Origin: Haliotis rufescens
Lineage: Eukaryota
Length of the DNA: 64,000 bases
NCBI RefSeq assembly: GCF_023055435.1
Contig: NW_025963802.1
Span: 41,292,001-41,356,000 of the forward strand
Direction: 5' to 3'
Shown here: piece by piece, positions 1-60,000 of the stretch
Layout of the letters: each line of letters begins with the position of its first letter
Numbering within the stretch: the stretch's first letter is position 1
Position numbers: made by a program

Positions 1-3000
1 ATTTCCTATTGTATGACACTTTTATGTAGTTTATGATACATCTTAGCAGTTTTTATTCAACGACTAAACCGACATCACAAGGCATGCTTTCTTGTTTCCG
101 TTTATCAAACTTATGAAAGTGTGAATGAATCAACTAATTAAACGTACAAGTCTTACAGAAAGAGTTTGCGAACAAGAATCAAATTACATGCAAGAGGAAT
201 AAATATAAACATTGGGATTAAAATGAAAGTTAAGCAACTTCTTTAATATAATTACATTATGTTATTCAATCATGATCTCTTACTCCAATTTTCTATCTGA
301 ATTGTCTGCACCACCTCCGTGCTCGTGGGTTTCACCAAAGTGAAAAAATGAAGTGACAAAACTCTTTCCATACCCAATAGAAATCTCTGCATAAAGCAGA
401 GTCGACAGTACGATGCAAACTATATCATGAGGATATGTTTATGAATCACTATCAAATAGTAATGATACCAGGTGTTCGCGAAAAGGTGAGCGTTTCCTGC
501 CCCACTGGTGGCACCCGTCACAAACACATGCAAAGGCAAGTCAGTTGTTAAGTCCGATATATATCTATATCTCCGAGTGAAATCATCATGATAGACATGT
601 GTTACCGTGTAGTGTACTGGTCATGTATGGATTGGAAATCATTGAACATACAAGACATAAATATACTGTAAGGATATTTATTAACAGTTATACATATAAG
701 CGATAACATCCCAAACATCTTTGTTTAGGATGCAAAACATGTCAACTTTGAAGACACAACTGCTTGAAGCAATACTGACAGTATCTGACACCAACACTAT
801 CAATGCAAAACTGGCTGAACCAGAATGGATAGCCCTGATTTTGTTTCATCCCGAACTAAGACACTGTTTCTGTTCATTTAGAGTATCATGTAGGTGGGGT
901 CATATACAGCAGGTCCTGTCGGAGCAACATCAGTTGCGGCAATAGTCGTGGGAGCAGCAGCAGAGGGGGCAGCAGCAGCATTAGCGTCGAGATCAACATA
1001 CACTGGACCTGCAGGAGACAAAATACAAATAACTGACTTTGACACGATACCGAATGCATTTTGTACAAACACATCAACACTGTAGTCATGTTTCTGATCT
1101 ACTGCTGGTTTCTTTTGTATCAATTGCATAAGTATCGAGATAAAATAAAATAAACTGACTATTAAGCCATGTTTCTTATTTACTGTATGTTCATTTCTGT
1201 AAATTTATAAAGGCATCGAGATCGTACCAGAACCAGAATCTGTAGAATAGAAAATAAATAAATAAATAGGGGATGTATTACTTGATAATAAACCTTGAAA
1301 CACATCAGCAAGGTTGTCCGTGTTCTCATTTACTGTTAGCGGTTCTATCACAATGTAATAATGCACTTACCATTACCATTGGATTGAATGGCACCAGCGC
1401 CCTGTAACCCTGGATGGACTAATCCTTGGTTGGGGAGCCCTGAGCCGAGACCAAGAGGGGAAACACCAAGTCCGTAAGGGGAAACACCAAGTCCGTAAGG
1501 GGAAATTCCATATCCGAGAGGAGGAATCCCAAGACCGAAGGGGTGCATCCCAAGACCAAAGCCGGGAATTCTAAGGCCGAAGTGGGGAAACCCTAGGCCG
1601 AAATGAGGATTGCCGATGCCACCGAAAGGAGGGAAACCAATTCCAAAACCGTGCGTTCTTGTTATGGCAACAAGGCAGACAATGATGACAGCAAGTACCT
1701 TCATGGTTTATTTGAATCTGGGAAGTAAGAGAAAATGTACATGTGTTAATTGAAACCGTGAAATATTTAATGACGTCATTTCTATTTTGACGATGATTTA
1801 CAAAATGTAATGCAAATGAAGGACATACTGTAAACCATTTAGCTTTCTTCACTGAGAACTAAAACTATATTAACAAAGGCCACTTTATATTCAACTCCAT
1901 CCTAAATTTTAAACGCATATTTACATGTTATCAAACACGTTTGTATATTCACAAACACACTGAATTTGACAACTCAAAACGTTGAAATATCGCCTTTGTC
2001 CGAATAAAATAACAATCACCCAGAAACGTCCCAATCGCTATAATATTTATTTTTATCTTCTTGTAATTTGAATCGAATGTGAAGTAGATTATGAAGCATC
2101 CAGTGATCTGAATTATTGTTCTTTTAGGATTGGTTTGGAATAACATGATAATGCTAACATTCCCATCACTGCATATTAAGATGTTTAAGAAAATGCAATA
2201 ATATGTATTCCGTCATGAACAGAGCGGGTAGAATTATGTAAATAATTATATTCGTGCACATGGATAATCCGTGAGAAGGATCCGGTTCCATATACCACGC
2301 AAGTACTTCATGTGAACACGAAATGAAATTAATATATGCGATGACGACATTAAACTGCACACAAAAATACTTACTTTTCTACGGATCAGAATAGGTTTAC
2401 CAGGAGAGTCCGAATCGGAAAGTGAAGTCTGCATCAAAACGTCTACCTTATATACTAAGACAGACGGTTATATGCACCGGTCCACTTACGGTCATAAATT
2501 GTAAATGTGTCTGCACTATGACGGGGTTGTCAACGTATTATACAACGATGGCCAGTCTATGTTAGCTGTGTGATAGTATTTATTGACAAGGACTCATTGA
2601 TTGACGGCAACAATGGACAGTAAATTATGTCATTCCTTACAGACGTTTTTTCAAGAAATGTGAGGAATTCATCAGCTCATTACACATATAGGGTGAATAC
2701 ATGTCAAATTGTGGAGAGAGAGAGAGAGAGAGAGATAAAGAGAGAGTGAGGGATAGAGAGAGTAATACATGTTATTTTAAATACAATTTACTTTGCATGA
2801 TGTACGTAAATTGTAAGATTTATAATTGTACGTGTTTCACAGGAAGACATTCGCTTATTAAATGCAACAAGATGGGTAAATTTTGACGAATATATGTTGA
2901 TATGTCAATATACTCATTGATGGACGGCAACAATGGACAGTAAATTATGTCATTCCTTACATACGTTGATTCAAGAAATGTGAGGAATTCATCAGCTCAT

Positions 3001-57000: not shown

Positions 57001-60000
57001 TGCTTATAACGAACTACTATTATAACGAAATAAAATAAGTAGTCCCTTTGAGTTCGTTACAACCGTAGTTTACTGTAGTTCACTCGTTCAGTAAAGAATT
57101 TATGGCTAGAACATCCAAATGTACAATGCTCTAAACTGGCACCTAAAAAAAAATATTCCTCTCTTTTATTGTAAAATTACTTCTATGTATGGTCAATTCA
57201 GATCTAATTCAGAGAAATGAGTAAATAGGCATGAACCACATAGTTATCAGTAGCAAAACATCGATCTCTATATAACAAAACGCCAACGCCAAAGAATATT
57301 CTGTCTCGATTGTCTGCCGAATAGTGAGTAAGTTTGGTTTCATGCCGCTTTTAGCAATATTCCAGCAATATCACGGCGGGGGACACCAGAAATGGGCTTC
57401 ACACATTGTACCCATGTCGGGAATCGAACCCGGGTCTTCGGCGTGACGAGCGAACGCTTTAACCACTAGGCTACCCGACCGCCCATCTGCCGAATAGCAT
57501 TGCTTTGGACGCCAAAACGAAAGTTGAGGAGAAGTGAAATGGGGTTTAACGTTGCGTCCAAGATTATTGCACTTATATAGCGACGTGCACGTGCGTGTGT
57601 GTGTGTGTGTGTCTATGTGTGTGTTACAATTTTCTTTGTCTCACGAAAGCAAAAACATAGTTACAAAAAGTTCTACCTTATTGACAGATGACACTAGGTA
57701 GCAGTGGCAAACGTAATAATTAGCAATATATCATTGTACTAGCTAGCCCAAGGTTATCTGTCAACATGGTCAGTAGTGTCCACTGCCTTAAGCTTGTATT
57801 TGACCTCAGGGAGTAATGTCACCATGGACAATGACGTCATAGTTACTTGTGCAATACGGCTGCTTACTTAAACTGATGGATATATAAGTTCCCCTAAGAC
57901 ATGCAGTTGAGGCATTCCAAGGCTTGACTTTGTAAACAGGTAAGTTACACTCTGATAGTTTGGTAGTGCAGTTACGATATAAGCGATGCGCGTCATAAAC
58001 GATTGCCACTTTCTTGAGTGAGTGAAAGTCGCTTACAACAGTACTTCAGCTACATGACGGTGTGTCAGCTGTACATGTATGTGGGCAAAAACACATTTGA
58101 AGACCTTTTTCATGTATGTTTTTTAACGTATTAAATTATTCCAAATCTGTTTGATTTCAGGGACATAAGATGAGGACTACTGTCGTTATTCTAGCAGTCA
58201 TGGTTGTCGGGGCGACATGCAAGTTATATGGAGGCGGCTATGGTCCTGGATTTGGTCATGGCTTTGGTCATGGCTATGGCTATGGTCCTGGATTTGGTCA
58301 TGGCATTGGTCATGGCTATGGCTATGGTCGTGGATCTGGTCATGGCATTGGTCATGGCTATGGCTATGGTCGTGGATCTGGTCATGGCATTGGTCATGGC
58401 TATGGCTATGGTCGTGGATCTGGTCACGCCCGCATTAGCCCTGGTTTTGGTGCTAACCACGTCGACGTTGAGGTACACCACGTCCCCCATGGCAACCATA
58501 TCGACACCATCACCAGACATGTTCCACATGTGTACGCAGGCAATGGAATGCATGGTGGATTTGGACATGGATATGGCGGTCATGGCCATGGATATGGGGG
58601 CGGCAGCATCTCAGTACACCATCATGGTGGCCACTTTGGTGGACACGGATATTGAATTGTCGGACACGCCCCACATGGTACGTTAATTAGTCTTCTAAAT
58701 ATAAGCTCCAAAGTATCGTCAATCAGGTGTAGTGTTCAGTTGGTTACTACCGAAAACACATTTGACCAGTTTGGACACAGCCTTATTTGACTTTCTATAC
58801 ATTTGGTAAAGATATTTTAATACTTTTCAACTTGTATTACGCAACATAAAACACATCCTGTTCTTATTCTGCAAACTTCATTTGTACAGGACCAATGGGA
58901 ACAATAGGTTAAAATAATTTATTGGATTTCCATGATCCGATGAAAACACCATGTTACATTTTGAAAACTGATTATCGAGTGTCATAGCGAGGGGGTCGGT
59001 TTCCAGAAGTAAAACGGAACGTGTAACTTGCTTAATCTATAAAATGTCAATAAATTCTGTCTGCATTTTTGTTTAATATTTGAATTCGATGGTAAAGAGC
59101 TCATTTTTATTTATACAACATAATTCAATGTTTTTTAGAAGGTATACGAAATTATCTTTTTTCTGCTCATTATTTCATTGATTATGCATTGCAGGCAACC
59201 AGCAATGACGTCCGAACACAAACCCGAGGTCACGATGAAAAGGTTTATGAAGCAGCCATGTCTTCTTTTCACTCGCTGTATGACAATGGTAATAAATCGA
59301 TGGTAGTTTATAAGAAGTCTTGTTGTTTTATTTCTTATTGCATACACACAGTGGAGTTTGCTTGTCATATAAATACAATGTTTGAAAGTAGTTAACGAGT
59401 GATTTTTGTTTAACGTCGCTGAGCAAAGTGATGAAGCTGTTAAAAGTAAGGAAGCGAATATATGGATGTCAACTTCTTTATTATGAGGAACAAAACGTTT
59501 CGGAGTATATGCTTACTCCTTCACCTGATGAAGGAGTAAGCATATACTCCGAAACGTTGTGTTCCTCATATTAAAGAACTTGACATCCATATATTCTCCT
59601 TCTTATTGGATATTTGTTCTAAGAAATATCGTACAATGGTCATGATATGTATTCCGAAAAATGTTACATTAAATGGTTCAACCTGTATTAAGAATCTTTC
59701 TAATTCATTGGTTAATCCGTAACACGTGACGAAACTATACATTTAAATTCAGACCCCCGAATCACGTGACTGACATGGACCTCGAATATTGACTCGTCAC
59801 ATGAACAGAATTGACCTGTCACGTGATAAATATTGACTCGCCTGCTAGAAAACAAGATGGCGTCTGGTACTACCATTTCGTGATTCGCAGTCAGGTTAAT
59901 GTAATGAAACAGGACAGTTTAAAGGTTTCATTTCGGTTTANNNNNNNNNNNNNNNNNNNNNNNNNNNNNNNNNNNNNNNNNNNNNNNNNNNNNNNNNNNN

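What the first reader, a model, noticed from the sequence alone, without database searches (positions are those of the whole stretch)
878..58655. Amplifying cluster of eight secreted low-complexity protein genes: candidate undescribed biomaterial system
Seen: the only intact host genes in 64 kb are seven Gly/Pro/Leu heptad paralogues and one Gly/His/Tyr protein. All have signal peptides, TATA-type promoters and a short non-coding first exon, and none has Cys in the mature chain. Known: molluscan and annelid structural materials (shell matrix, periostracum, squid beak, polychaete jaw) use such repetitive secreted proteins, often from tandem clusters. Inference: a co-expressed two-component material, with a hydrophobic self-assembling matrix under dosage amplification plus a His/Tyr cross-linking or metal-binding partner. 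I cannot name the family or tissue.
Basis: partly seen in the sequence, partly recalled or inferred. Interest (0 to 1): 0.8.

Follow-up and report, generated by a model that had tools for sequence, protein, structure and literature searches.

The report
Tandem cluster of secreted glycine-rich proteins
Seven recently duplicated genes for a small secreted glycine-proline-leucine repeat protein lie next to one gene for a secreted glycine-histidine-tyrosine protein; they look like lineage-specific building blocks of some extracellular material, a familiar kind of animal gene cluster whose tissue and wider family could not be identified here.

Summary
The window carries seven intact paralogues (A1, A2, B1-B5) of a three-exon gene. 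It encodes a signal peptide, about 92 residues of x-P-x-L/F-G-L-G heptads (Gly 28-29%, Pro 13-14%) and an acidic Ala/Thr/Pro/Tyr tail. One further gene (C) encodes a (Gly-X)n His/Tyr-rich protein. Frame-preserving indels, pN/pS of 0.43-0.63 and a conserved promoter module show these are real genes. B1-B4 lie in four 9.0-9.6 kb direct units that are 96-98.5% identical; B5 is an inverted partial copy. Pfam, PDB sequences, ESM-Atlas clusters and two prokaryote genome scans gave no relative. AlphaFold models are disordered. Both proteins meet the published criteria for silk-like structural proteins. Tandem arrays of such genes are already known in molluscs. My best reading is lineage-restricted secreted structural proteins: A/B elastomer-like, C a pH-switchable beta-former. 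The proposed A/B-C partnership rests on adjacency alone, and gene C lacks the A/B promoter module. The large protein databases were closed, so family novelty is untested. I rate it a new member of a known kind, of moderate interest.

The parts
878..2454 (-). Gene A1. TATA 2447-2454. Inferred non-coding exon 1 ends at 2375. Exon 2 is 1371-1717 (ATG at 1704). Exon 3 is 878-1008 (stop 878-880).
7703..9144 (-). Gene A2. Degenerate TATA-like word 9137-9144. Exon 1 ends at 9065. Exon 2 is 8184-8509 (ATG at 8496). Exon 3 is 7703-7812. It has in-frame deletions relative to A1 and a tRNA-derived SINE in intron 2.
15773..17045 (-). Gene B1. TATA 17038-17045. Exon 1 ends at 16974. Exon 2 is 16021-16363 (ATG at 16354). 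Exon 3 is 15773-15900. AATAAA at 15620-15625.
24796..26069 (-). Gene B2. TATA 26062-26069. Exon 1 ends at 25998. Exon 2 is 25044-25386. Exon 3 is 24796-24923.
34360..35632 (-). Gene B3. TATA 35625-35632. Exon 1 ends at 35561. Exon 2 is 34608-34950. Exon 3 is 34360-34487. Its coding sequence is identical to B1.
43970..45243 (-). Gene B4. TATA 45236-45243. Exon 1 ends at 45172. Exon 2 is 44218-44560. Exon 3 is 43970-44097.
49771..51079 (+). Gene B5, head-to-head with B4. TATA 49771-49778. Exon 1 ends at 49842. Exon 2 is 50489-50831 (ATG at 50498). Exon 3 is 50952-51079.
57881..58655 (+). Gene C, the Gly/His/Tyr protein. TATA 57881-57888. Inferred non-coding exon 1 ends at 57939. Exon 2 starts at 58161 and the CDS is 58170-58655 (161 aa). 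AATAAA at 59049-59054. The 42-nt repeat of 4.5 copies at 58236-58426 encodes (Gly-X)7 units.
10925..48527 (.). Direct tandem array of four units of 9.0-9.6 kb carrying B1-B4. ATG-to-ATG spacings are 9023, 9564 and 9610. Units are 96.1-98.5% identical over 6.2-8.4 kb.
49981..53216 (.). Inverted partial copy of the unit, carrying B5. It is 92-95% identical to units B1-B4.
18831..18889 (-). Core of the orphan copy of the A/B upstream promoter module in unit B1. It has no TATA or exon 1 behind it.
28048..28106 (-). Orphan promoter-module core in unit B2.
37418..37476 (-). Orphan promoter-module core in unit B3.
47172..47230 (-). Orphan promoter-module core in unit B4.

Best explanation
This is a lineage-restricted cluster of genes for secreted structural proteins of the 'silk-like / repetitive low-complexity' kind, in an animal genome.

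Shown:
- There are seven intact paralogues and one neighbour gene, all with a signal-peptide-like N-terminus.
- A/B proteins are small (111 exon-2 codons, 104 in A2, plus a tail of 35-42) and almost uncharged apart from an acidic tail. They are hydrophobic, Cys-free and built of Pro-containing heptads.
- Gene C is a strict Gly-X alternation carrying His, Tyr, Phe and Ile, followed by a non-repetitive His-rich segment and a Gly/His/Tyr end.
- Four of the A/B-family genes lie in young 9-kb tandem units.

Inferred:
- After secretion, the A/B chains stay disordered and condense through hydrophobic contacts into an elastomer-like or coacervate matrix. The regular prolines prevent beta-aggregation. 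The conserved Tyr-bearing acidic tail serves as an assembly or cross-link handle.
- Gene C is soluble when its His residues are protonated (computed charge +26 at pH 5). It loses that charge near pH 8 (+2.5), which favours beta-sheet stacking of the Gly-X array and His/Tyr-mediated metal binding or cross-linking.
- Copy number grew by unequal crossing-over in SINE-rich DNA and probably raises transcript supply.

I treat a joint role for A/B and C in one material as unproven, at about 1 in 4.
For: Gene reality:
- All indels between paralogues preserve the frame.
- pN/pS is 0.43 for A1-A2, 0.52 for A1-B1 and 0.63 for A2-B1, with Fisher p from 0.0002 to 0.017.
- The promoter module is alignable between A and B over about 200 bp, although silent sites differ by 0.4-0.5.
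- The 88 bp spanning TATA and exon 1 show 0 differences between B1 and B5, against 38 of 606 in intron 1.

Structural-protein criteria: a signal-like N-terminus plus Gly of at least 25% in 80 residues is met by A/B (0.29-0.30) and by C (0.45) (criteria from the Results of PMC4944945).

Disorder: mean pLDDT is 48.4 for B1 exon 2 with a 6-sequence alignment and 44.4 for C, with only the signal helix confident.

Proline and glycine content:
- A/B have 2P+G of 0.54-0.58.
- Elastomeric proteins are set apart by high Pro+Gly combined with hydrophobicity (PMC5424786 passages).
- C has about 3% Pro, and its repeat is modelled as strands at low confidence.

His/Gly/Tyr chemistry: a pH switch, metal coordination and His-catechol cross-links are described for worm jaws, squid beak and suckerins (PMC9999432 passages).

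Precedent for tandem arrays: clusters of glycine-rich matrix genes, copy number proposed to raise transcript supply, and coordinated expression of such arrays are reported in PMC4759782 (passages).
Against: - There are no expression, protein or material data of any kind, and the source organism and tissue are unknown.
- No homologue was found, so function rests on composition alone, and the composition-based predictor has known false positives (immune and hedgehog-related glycine-rich families).
- The A/B 2P+G value falls just under the elastomer threshold as I recall it (about 0.6; the number was not seen in any call).
- A/B have no Lys and C has only one, so the classical cross-link chemistries of elastin or abductin cannot apply.
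- Constraint is modest (pN/pS about 0.5).
- Among B1-B4 the 5 variable coding sites are all non-synonymous. The count is too small to tell selection from drift.
- Gene C does not share the A/B promoter module.
Confidence: 0.55

Rival explanations
1. A/B and C are co-expressed partners of one two-component material: a hydrophobic matrix plus a His/Tyr cross-linker. A/B copy number is selected for dosage.
For: - The genes are adjacent: the B5 stop at 51079 lies 6.8 kb from the gene C TATA, on the same strand.
- Their physical chemistry is complementary: Pro-rich and disordered against Gly-X and strand-prone.
- The gene layout is similar: TATA, a short 5' exon and no Cys.
- Tandem arrays of matrix genes expressed in a coordinated fashion are reported (PMC4759782 passage).
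Against: - The two 13-nt cores of the A/B module hit 11 sites each at up to 2 mismatches, all at A/B promoters or orphan copies and none near C.
- The C upstream region does not align with A/B.
- A 9-nt word shared by the C and A1 promoters is about what chance gives for two 300-nt stretches (my arithmetic, about 0.7 expected).
- There are no expression data.
- Exon-versus-noncoding divergence among B1-B4 is significant in only 3 of 6 pairs.
Confidence: 0.2
2. These are host-defence peptides. Gene C, and less plausibly A/B, would be a glycine-rich or histidine-rich antimicrobial effector, and the tandem expansion would reflect immune-gene turnover.
For: - Glycine-rich antimicrobial peptides exist in marine invertebrates: hyastatin, armadillidin and Spgly-AMP appear as titles in the reference list of PMC13518417. 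Histidine-rich ones such as clavanin A appear in a table of the same review.
- Gene C is cationic, and strongly so at low pH.
- Glycine-rich immune families are known false positives of the silk-like predictor.
- Tandem expansion is also typical of immune genes (C1q example).
Against: - A/B are hydrophobic, net neutral to acidic (exon 2 charge -0.7 to +0.4; tail -2.2 to -4.2) and have K+R of 1, which does not resemble cationic peptides.
- There are no dibasic processing sites.
- Mature lengths are large for such peptides: about 134 residues for A1 and the B copies (120 for A2) and 144 for C.
- The strict Gly-X array of C resembles structural silk-like repeats.
Confidence: 0.12
3. The four-unit array is partly an assembly artefact (over-expanded repeat or haplotype copies placed in tandem), so the true copy number is lower.
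For: - The units are 96-98.5% identical, a range in which assemblers can err.
- B1 and B3 have identical coding sequence.
- The window contains an assembly gap at 59941-60090.
Against: - The units differ by 0.6-2.6% in non-coding DNA and by indels that give unit lengths of 9023, 9564 and 9610.
- Similarity between units is mosaic: B1 is closest to B3, and B2-B4 align over a different span.
- The gap lies outside the array.
Confidence: 0.07
4. These are non-functional or neutrally drifting ORFs produced by a repeated region, not expressed genes.
For: - There is no transcript evidence.
- The sequence is low-complexity.
- The periodic codons create long ORFs in other frames and on the opposite strand over the same DNA.
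Against: - 7 of 7 copies keep ATG, both splice sites, frame and stop across dS of up to 0.5.
- pN/pS is significantly below 1 in 3 of 4 older comparisons.
- The promoter is conserved.
Confidence: 0.05

Closest known systems
Silk-like structural proteins / repetitive low-complexity-domain secreted proteins of animal biomaterials (e.g. pearl-oyster shematrins)
   Same: - Secreted, with at least 25% Gly in an 80-residue window, repetitive and predicted disordered.
- No cross-taxon homologues found.
- The genes sit in tandem arrays.
   Different: - This is a class defined by composition, not a homologous family.
- The Pro-containing heptad and the acidic Ala/Thr/Tyr tail of A/B were not seen in any passage I read.
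- Shematrin sequence features are recalled only and were not compared.
Squid beak His-rich proteins (DgHBPs) and Nereis jaw proteins (NVJPs)
   Same: Gene C shares their Gly/His/Tyr-dominated composition, Tyr flanked by Gly, low complexity, and the expected pH-dependent solubility from His (passages).
   Different: - HBP repeats are pentapeptides. Gene C has a 14-residue (Gly-X)7 period, with lag-5 identity of 0.01.
- NVJP has 27% His and about 15% Asp+Glu and is 32-40 kDa. Gene C has 17% His, 2% Asp+Glu and about 15 kDa.
- No sequence comparison was possible, because no comparator sequence was returned by any tool.
Abductin (scallop hinge-ligament rubber)
   Same: It is a small secreted protein with a 19-residue signal, glycine-rich short tandem repeats, Phe and Met in the repeats, an Ala-rich non-repeat domain bearing Tyr, and a presumed random-coil elastomer (passage).
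   Different: - Abductin has about 58% Gly and 1% Pro, high Met, decapeptide repeats, an Ala-rich domain at the N-terminus with 2 Cys, and Lys.
- A/B have 28-29% Gly, 13-14% Pro, heptads, a C-terminal Ala-rich tail, no Cys and no Lys.
Elastin-type hydrophobic Pro/Gly elastomers
   Same: Hydrophobic, with high combined Pro+Gly, regular prolines and predicted disorder.
   Different: - No Lys-based cross-linking domains.
- Far shorter chains.
- 2P+G of 0.54-0.58 is borderline.
- The resemblance is compositional only.
[quoted passage not shown]
   Same: A secreted, glycine-rich, disordered protein with a His-rich region and no known homologues (passages).
   Different: RTMP1 is 539 aa, Gly/Ser-rich, and has a Trp/Phe-rich chitin-binding-like region. 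Gene C is 161 aa with 4% Ser and no Trp.

Membership tests
Silk-like structural proteins (SilkSlider definition, PMC4944945) | Predicted secretion signal | tested here: inconclusive
   N-termini look like signal peptides (M-K/R, hydrophobic core, small residues at -3/-1) and are modelled as helices 2-17 and 2-19. No signal-peptide predictor was available.
Silk-like structural proteins (SilkSlider definition, PMC4944945) | An 80-residue window with at least 25% glycine | tested here: met
   The maximum Gly fraction in 80 residues is 0.29-0.30 for 6 of 6 A/B exon-2 peptides tested and 0.45 for gene C. The criterion was read.
Abductin | Decapeptide Gly/Met/Phe repeat with about 58% Gly and about 1% Pro | tested here: not met
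   The period is 7, Gly is 28-29% and Pro is 13-14%. Abductin features come from the review passage.
Squid beak His-rich proteins | [quoted passage not shown] | tested here: not met
   The composition is similar, but the period is 14 (lag-14 identity 0.79) and lag-5 identity is 0.01. Homology was not testable because the sequence databases were closed.
Nereis jaw proteins (NVJP) | About 27% His, 36% Gly, notable Asp/Glu, 32-40 kDa | tested here: not met
   Gene C has His 17%, Gly 38%, Asp+Glu 3 of 144 residues, and 144-146 residues.
Any Pfam family | Score above the curated cut-off | tested here: not met
   0 of 7 exon peptides reach a cut-off. The only row is SGP, E=1.8, 9.9 bits against a cut-off of 26.7.
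Mollusc shell matrix proteins | Presence in a shell proteome or mantle-restricted expression | not testable with these tools
   No expression or proteome data could be queried by sequence, and the phylum of the source is itself unknown.
Glycine-rich antimicrobial peptides | Cationic mature peptide, immune-tissue expression, measured activity | tested here: inconclusive
   Computed charge is +2.3 to +2.6 at pH 7.8 for C, and about 0 (exon 2) and -2 to -4 (tail) for A/B. Expression and activity are not testable here.

The most novel reading that the evidence does not exclude
The A/B proteins would be a previously undescribed class of invertebrate elastomer or coacervate protein. The class would be a Lys-free, Cys-free Pro-heptad chain, convergent with elastin, that is hardened or anchored by the neighbouring (Gly-X)n His/Tyr protein. 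The locus would then encode a complete two-component biomaterial whose output is tuned by copy number of a 9-kb unit.
Probability: 0.15. Interest if true: 0.65.

Novelty: new member of a known kind. Interest (0 to 1): 0.35.

Why it matters
If the proteins prove to build a material, they offer two unusually short and simple designs. One is a 7-residue Pro/Gly/Leu elastomer-like repeat without Lys or Cys. The other is a strict Gly-X His/Tyr array with a 24-unit computed charge swing between pH 5 and pH 7.8. Both would be of practical interest for bio-inspired polymers. The locus also shows cleanly how such genes multiply: young 9-kb units in SINE-rich DNA, a conserved promoter module, and orphan copies of that module. 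As a biological category it is not new. Rapidly evolving, lineage-restricted, tandemly duplicated low-complexity secreted genes are a described hallmark of animal biomaterial secretomes.

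Tried and rejected
Pfam on the 7 exon peptides gave no family above cut-off.

PDB sequence searches were run with gene C, B1 exon 2 and the B1 exon-3 tail. They gave only low-complexity chance rows, best E=0.009 to a ribosomal S10 tail, or nothing.

ESM-Atlas best scores were 0.79 (B1 exon 2) and 0.82 (gene C; arthropod cuticle-like and His-rich clusters). All are below the 0.9 the tool treats as more than a lead.

AlphaFold models were below pLDDT 50. 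I therefore did not run fold search, because matches to such models would be meaningless.

Full-text searches for six short peptide words from the proteins and for one 39-nt word of the interspersed repeat each found 0 papers. Keyword searches gave background papers but no description of these proteins. This is not proof that the family is unpublished, because sequences are rarely printed in running text.

The prokaryote genome scans gave the following:
- A/B: 0 relatives among 72 pattern matches.
- Gene C: 1 tblastn match among 600 or more candidate stretches. It lies in an alternative frame, opposite an S1-domain gene of a Chloroflexia MAG, and I rejected it as low-complexity chance.

Other readings I rejected:
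- Neuropeptide or prohormone precursor: K+R is 1 and there are no dibasic sites.
- Abductin, RTMP1, HBP and NVJP membership: a defining feature is not met in each case.
- A shared A/B-C promoter element: none found.
- Other genes or mobile-element proteins in the window: 0 of 10 and then 0 of 85 open frames hit Pfam.

I also looked in the abalone shell proteome paper (PMC6003135) and found nothing resembling these proteins (passages only).

The phylum was not determined. Rfam gave only 2 tRNA-like SINE heads, and ARAGORN gave none.

- The search for homologous proteins, the search of protein representatives, and the metagenome and viral collections.
- Papers' supplementary files. The S1 Dataset of PMC4944945 and the shell-proteome tables of PMC6003135 could contain relatives.

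Full report
WHAT IS THERE

The window is animal-type nuclear DNA. GC is 34-42%. Introns follow GT-AG, short interspersed repeats are abundant, and there is one 150-N gap at 59941-60090, which I left alone.

ORF listing and a splice-site script recover seven paralogues of one small gene:
- A1, ATG at 1704, minus strand
- A2, 8496, minus
- B1, 16354, minus
- B2, 25377, minus
- B3, 34941, minus
- B4, 44551, minus
- B5, 50498, plus
- one unrelated neighbour, gene C, CDS 58170-58655, plus

tblastn of the exon peptides back onto the window finds exactly 7 exon-2 copies, 7 exon-3 copies and 1 gene C, with no fragments.

GENE MODELS

Every A/B copy has the same layout:
- A TATA word. It is canonical in 6 of the 7 A/B copies; A2 reads TATGAAAG.
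- A conserved word about 31 nt downstream of the TATA.
- A GTAAGT donor 72-80 nt after the TATA, with no ATG in between.
- An intron of about 0.6 kb.
- An acceptor 9 or 13 nt before the ATG.
- A coding exon of 334 nt (313 in A2) that ends in a phase-1 GTAAGT donor.
- A second intron: 120 nt in the B copies and about 360 nt in A1 and A2, where A2's contains a tRNA-derived SINE.
- A last exon of 35-42 codons.

Gene C has a TATA at 57881-57888, a donor at 57940, an acceptor before 58161, a single coding exon and AATAAA at 59049-59054.

Exon 1 and the promoters are inferred from conservation. I had no transcript data.

The joined protein was not searched or folded.

THE PROTEINS

Each A/B precursor starts with a 19-residue signal-like peptide. 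About 92 residues follow (85 in A2) with a 7-residue period. Identity at lag 7 is 0.41-0.46, reached by 0 of 2000 shuffles in each of 6 copies tested, and the DNA shows 21-nt arrays.

Composition of that part is Gly 28-29%, Pro 13-14%, Leu 11-16% and Phe 8-9%. It is hydrophobic (GRAVY 0.35-0.48) and close to uncharged.

The exon-3 tail is Ala-rich (29-34%) and acidic (charge -2.2 to -4.2), with conserved Tyr and a Thr-Thr-Ile-Ala-Ala-Thr core.

Per mature protein there are 0 Cys, and Lys+Arg is 1, in 7 of 7 copies.

Gene C (161 aa) has Gly at every second position for about 75 residues. The 14-residue unit has lag-14 identity of 0.79, and the odd positions carry His, Tyr, Phe, Ile, Arg and Ser. 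A non-repetitive His-rich segment and a Gly/His/Tyr end follow.

Overall, gene C is Gly 38%, His 17% and Tyr 10%. Its computed charge is +26 at pH 5 and about +2.5 at pH 7.8.

Whether its single Cys (residue 17) is removed depends on which of two plausible cleavage sites is used.

ARE THESE REAL GENES?

The evidence says yes.
- All indels between paralogues preserve the frame, including a whole-heptad loss in A2.
- Pooled over the two coding exons, pN/pS is 0.43 (A1-A2), 0.52 (A1-B1) and 0.63 (A2-B1), with Fisher p of 0.0009, 0.0002 and 0.017. B1-B5 is 0.55 and not significant.
- The A and B promoters align over about 200 bp, although silent sites differ by 0.4-0.5.
- Between B1 and B5 the 88 bp around TATA and exon 1 show 0 differences, against 38 of 606 in intron 1.
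- Long ORFs in other frames and on the opposite strand over the repeats are by-products of the periodic codons.

THE DUPLICATION STRUCTURE

- B1-B4 sit in four direct units of 9023-9610 bp that are 96.1-98.5% identical over 6.2-8.4 kb.
- B5 lies in an inverted partial copy (49981-53216, 92-95% identical), head-to-head with B4.
- The A1 and A2 regions are 91% identical over 1.1 kb.
- Among B1-B4 the exons differ at 0-4 of 472 positions and the surrounding non-coding DNA at 0.58-2.58%. Fisher p is below 0.05 in 3 of 6 pairs.
- The 5 variable coding sites are all non-synonymous, which is too few to interpret.

So recent amplification is shown. Selection for dosage is not shown.

WHAT ELSE IS IN THE WINDOW

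- None of the 10 longest open frames outside the family hits Pfam. Nor does any of 85 non-redundant open frames of 62 aa or more.
- A crude scan found no other signal-peptide-like ORF. The same scan also missed A2, whose hydrophobic core is interrupted by Thr.
- Most of the longer spurious ORFs come from a roughly 280-bp interspersed element (40 blastn hits) and a tRNA-derived SINE (14 hits; 2 reach the Rfam tRNA threshold).
- I saw no virus-like element and no broken protein-coding mobile-element gene.

SEARCH FOR RELATIVES

- Pfam: 0 of 7 exon peptides above cut-off.
- PDB sequences: chance low-complexity rows only, or none.
- ESM-Atlas: best scores 0.79 and 0.82, below the 0.9 level. The hits for gene C are arthropod cuticle-like and His-rich clusters, which I read as compositional likeness.
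- AlphaFold: mean pLDDT of 48.4 (B1 exon 2, with a 6-sequence alignment) and 44.4 (gene C). Only the signal helix is confident, and low-confidence strands cover the Gly-X array.
- Prokaryote genomes: no relative of A/B, and one spurious wrong-frame match for C.
- The large protein databases were closed. Whether the family is already catalogued elsewhere is therefore unknown, and this is the main gap in the report.

HOW IT MOST LIKELY WORKS

Both protein types meet the published operational definition of silk-like structural proteins: secreted, with at least 25% Gly in 80 residues (Results of PMC4944945, read; tested). That study found most such proteins to be lineage-restricted. It also lists glycine-rich immune families as false positives.

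For A/B, a proline in every heptad, high hydrophobicity and predicted disorder place the chain near the elastomeric region of Pro/Gly composition space (2P+G of 0.54-0.58). The principle comes from PMC5424786 passages. The numeric threshold is recalled and was not seen in a call. I infer a hydrophobically condensing, elastomer-like or coacervate matrix, with the acidic Tyr-bearing tail acting as an assembly or cross-link handle.

For C, low Pro content, strict Gly-X alternation and His as the dominant ionisable residue suggest a pH-triggered loss of solubility, beta-sheet stacking, and His/Tyr-mediated metal coordination or covalent cross-linking. This is the behaviour described for worm jaw, squid beak and sucker-ring proteins (PMC9999432 passages).

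None of these steps is shown for this locus.

COMPARISON WITH KNOWN SYSTEMS

- As a kind, the locus matches the described pattern of rapidly evolving, repetitive, low-complexity secreted proteins that expand by duplication and slippage (PMC4897951 passages).
- It also matches tandem arrays of glycine-rich matrix genes such as the shematrins. For those, higher copy number has been proposed to raise transcript supply, and coordinated expression of arrays is reported (PMC4759782 passages).
- Membership in abductin, squid beak His-rich proteins, Nereis jaw proteins and chiton RTMP1 fails on at least one defining feature each.
- The abalone shell proteome passages I read show nothing similar.

THE A/B-C PARTNERSHIP

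The only support is adjacency and complementary chemistry. Against it, the two conserved 13-nt cores of the A/B upstream module each occur at 11 sites in the window (7 promoters plus 4 orphan copies) and never near gene C. The C promoter also does not align with the A/B promoters. I put the partnership at about 0.2-0.25.

VERDICT

This is a new member of a known kind: a lineage-restricted, tandemly amplified cluster of secreted low-complexity, probably structural proteins. Family, tissue and material remain unidentified. Interest is 0.35.

Papers and what I saw of each:
- PMC4944945: outline, abstract and the whole Results section.
- PMC9999432, PMC4897951, PMC6003135, PMC13518417, PMC5424786, PMC4759782 and PMC6351634: passages returned by term searches only.
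- Supplements: none seen.
- Recalled, not seen in any call: the numeric Pro/Gly threshold (Rauscher et al. 2006), shematrin sequence features, and the composition of elastin.

Noticed in passing
window 18831-18889, 28048-28106, 37418-37476, 47172-47230 (minus strand): Each of the four B units carries a second, orphan copy of the A/B upstream promoter module, about 1.75 kb upstream of its own promoter. It is closer to the A-type module (90% over 50 nt), and the similarity stops just before where TATA and exon 1 would be. It is either the relic of a lost gene copy in the ancestral unit or a distal regulatory element.
   Followed up: partly
window 15371-15503, 24394-24526, 33958-34090, 43568-43700, 51349-51475; also 8003-8139 and 57323-57484: A tRNA-derived SINE (14 blastn hits; 2 reach the Rfam tRNA threshold at 57409-57480 and 62176-62247) sits about 270 bp after the stop of every B gene. 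Other copies lie in intron 2 of A2 and about 400 bp upstream of the gene C TATA. Such copies could have mediated the unequal crossing-over.
   Followed up: partly
window-wide, e.g. 61615-61895, 14507-14782, 60513-60769: A roughly 280-bp interspersed element gives 40 blastn hits in both orientations, about 7 per B unit. It accounts for most of the longer non-family ORFs. No protein-coding mobile element was seen.
   Followed up: partly
window 2592-3223 and 9287-9512: A 324-bp unit is repeated twice in tandem (91% identical), each copy with a (GA)n run, beginning about 140 bp upstream of the A1 TATA. A degenerate single copy (68%) lies upstream of A2.
   Followed up: no
window exons of B1-B4: The 5 variable coding sites among B1-B4 are all non-synonymous, with 0 synonymous, and B1 and B3 are identical in coding sequence. 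The numbers are too small to separate selection, gene conversion and drift.
   Followed up: partly
window 55988-56180: A CA-rich hexanucleotide microsatellite (period 6, 31 copies) creates several spurious 70-113-aa ORFs on both strands.
   Followed up: no
window 59941-60090: A run of 150 N (assembly gap or masked stretch) lies 1.3 kb downstream of gene C. I left it as it is.
   Followed up: no
L001 3001-3225: The only prokaryotic 'relative' of gene C is a Gly/His-rich alternative frame lying opposite an S1-domain gene with Glu/Ala/Val repeats in a Chloroflexia MAG. It shows how low-complexity queries produce false matches.
   Followed up: yes
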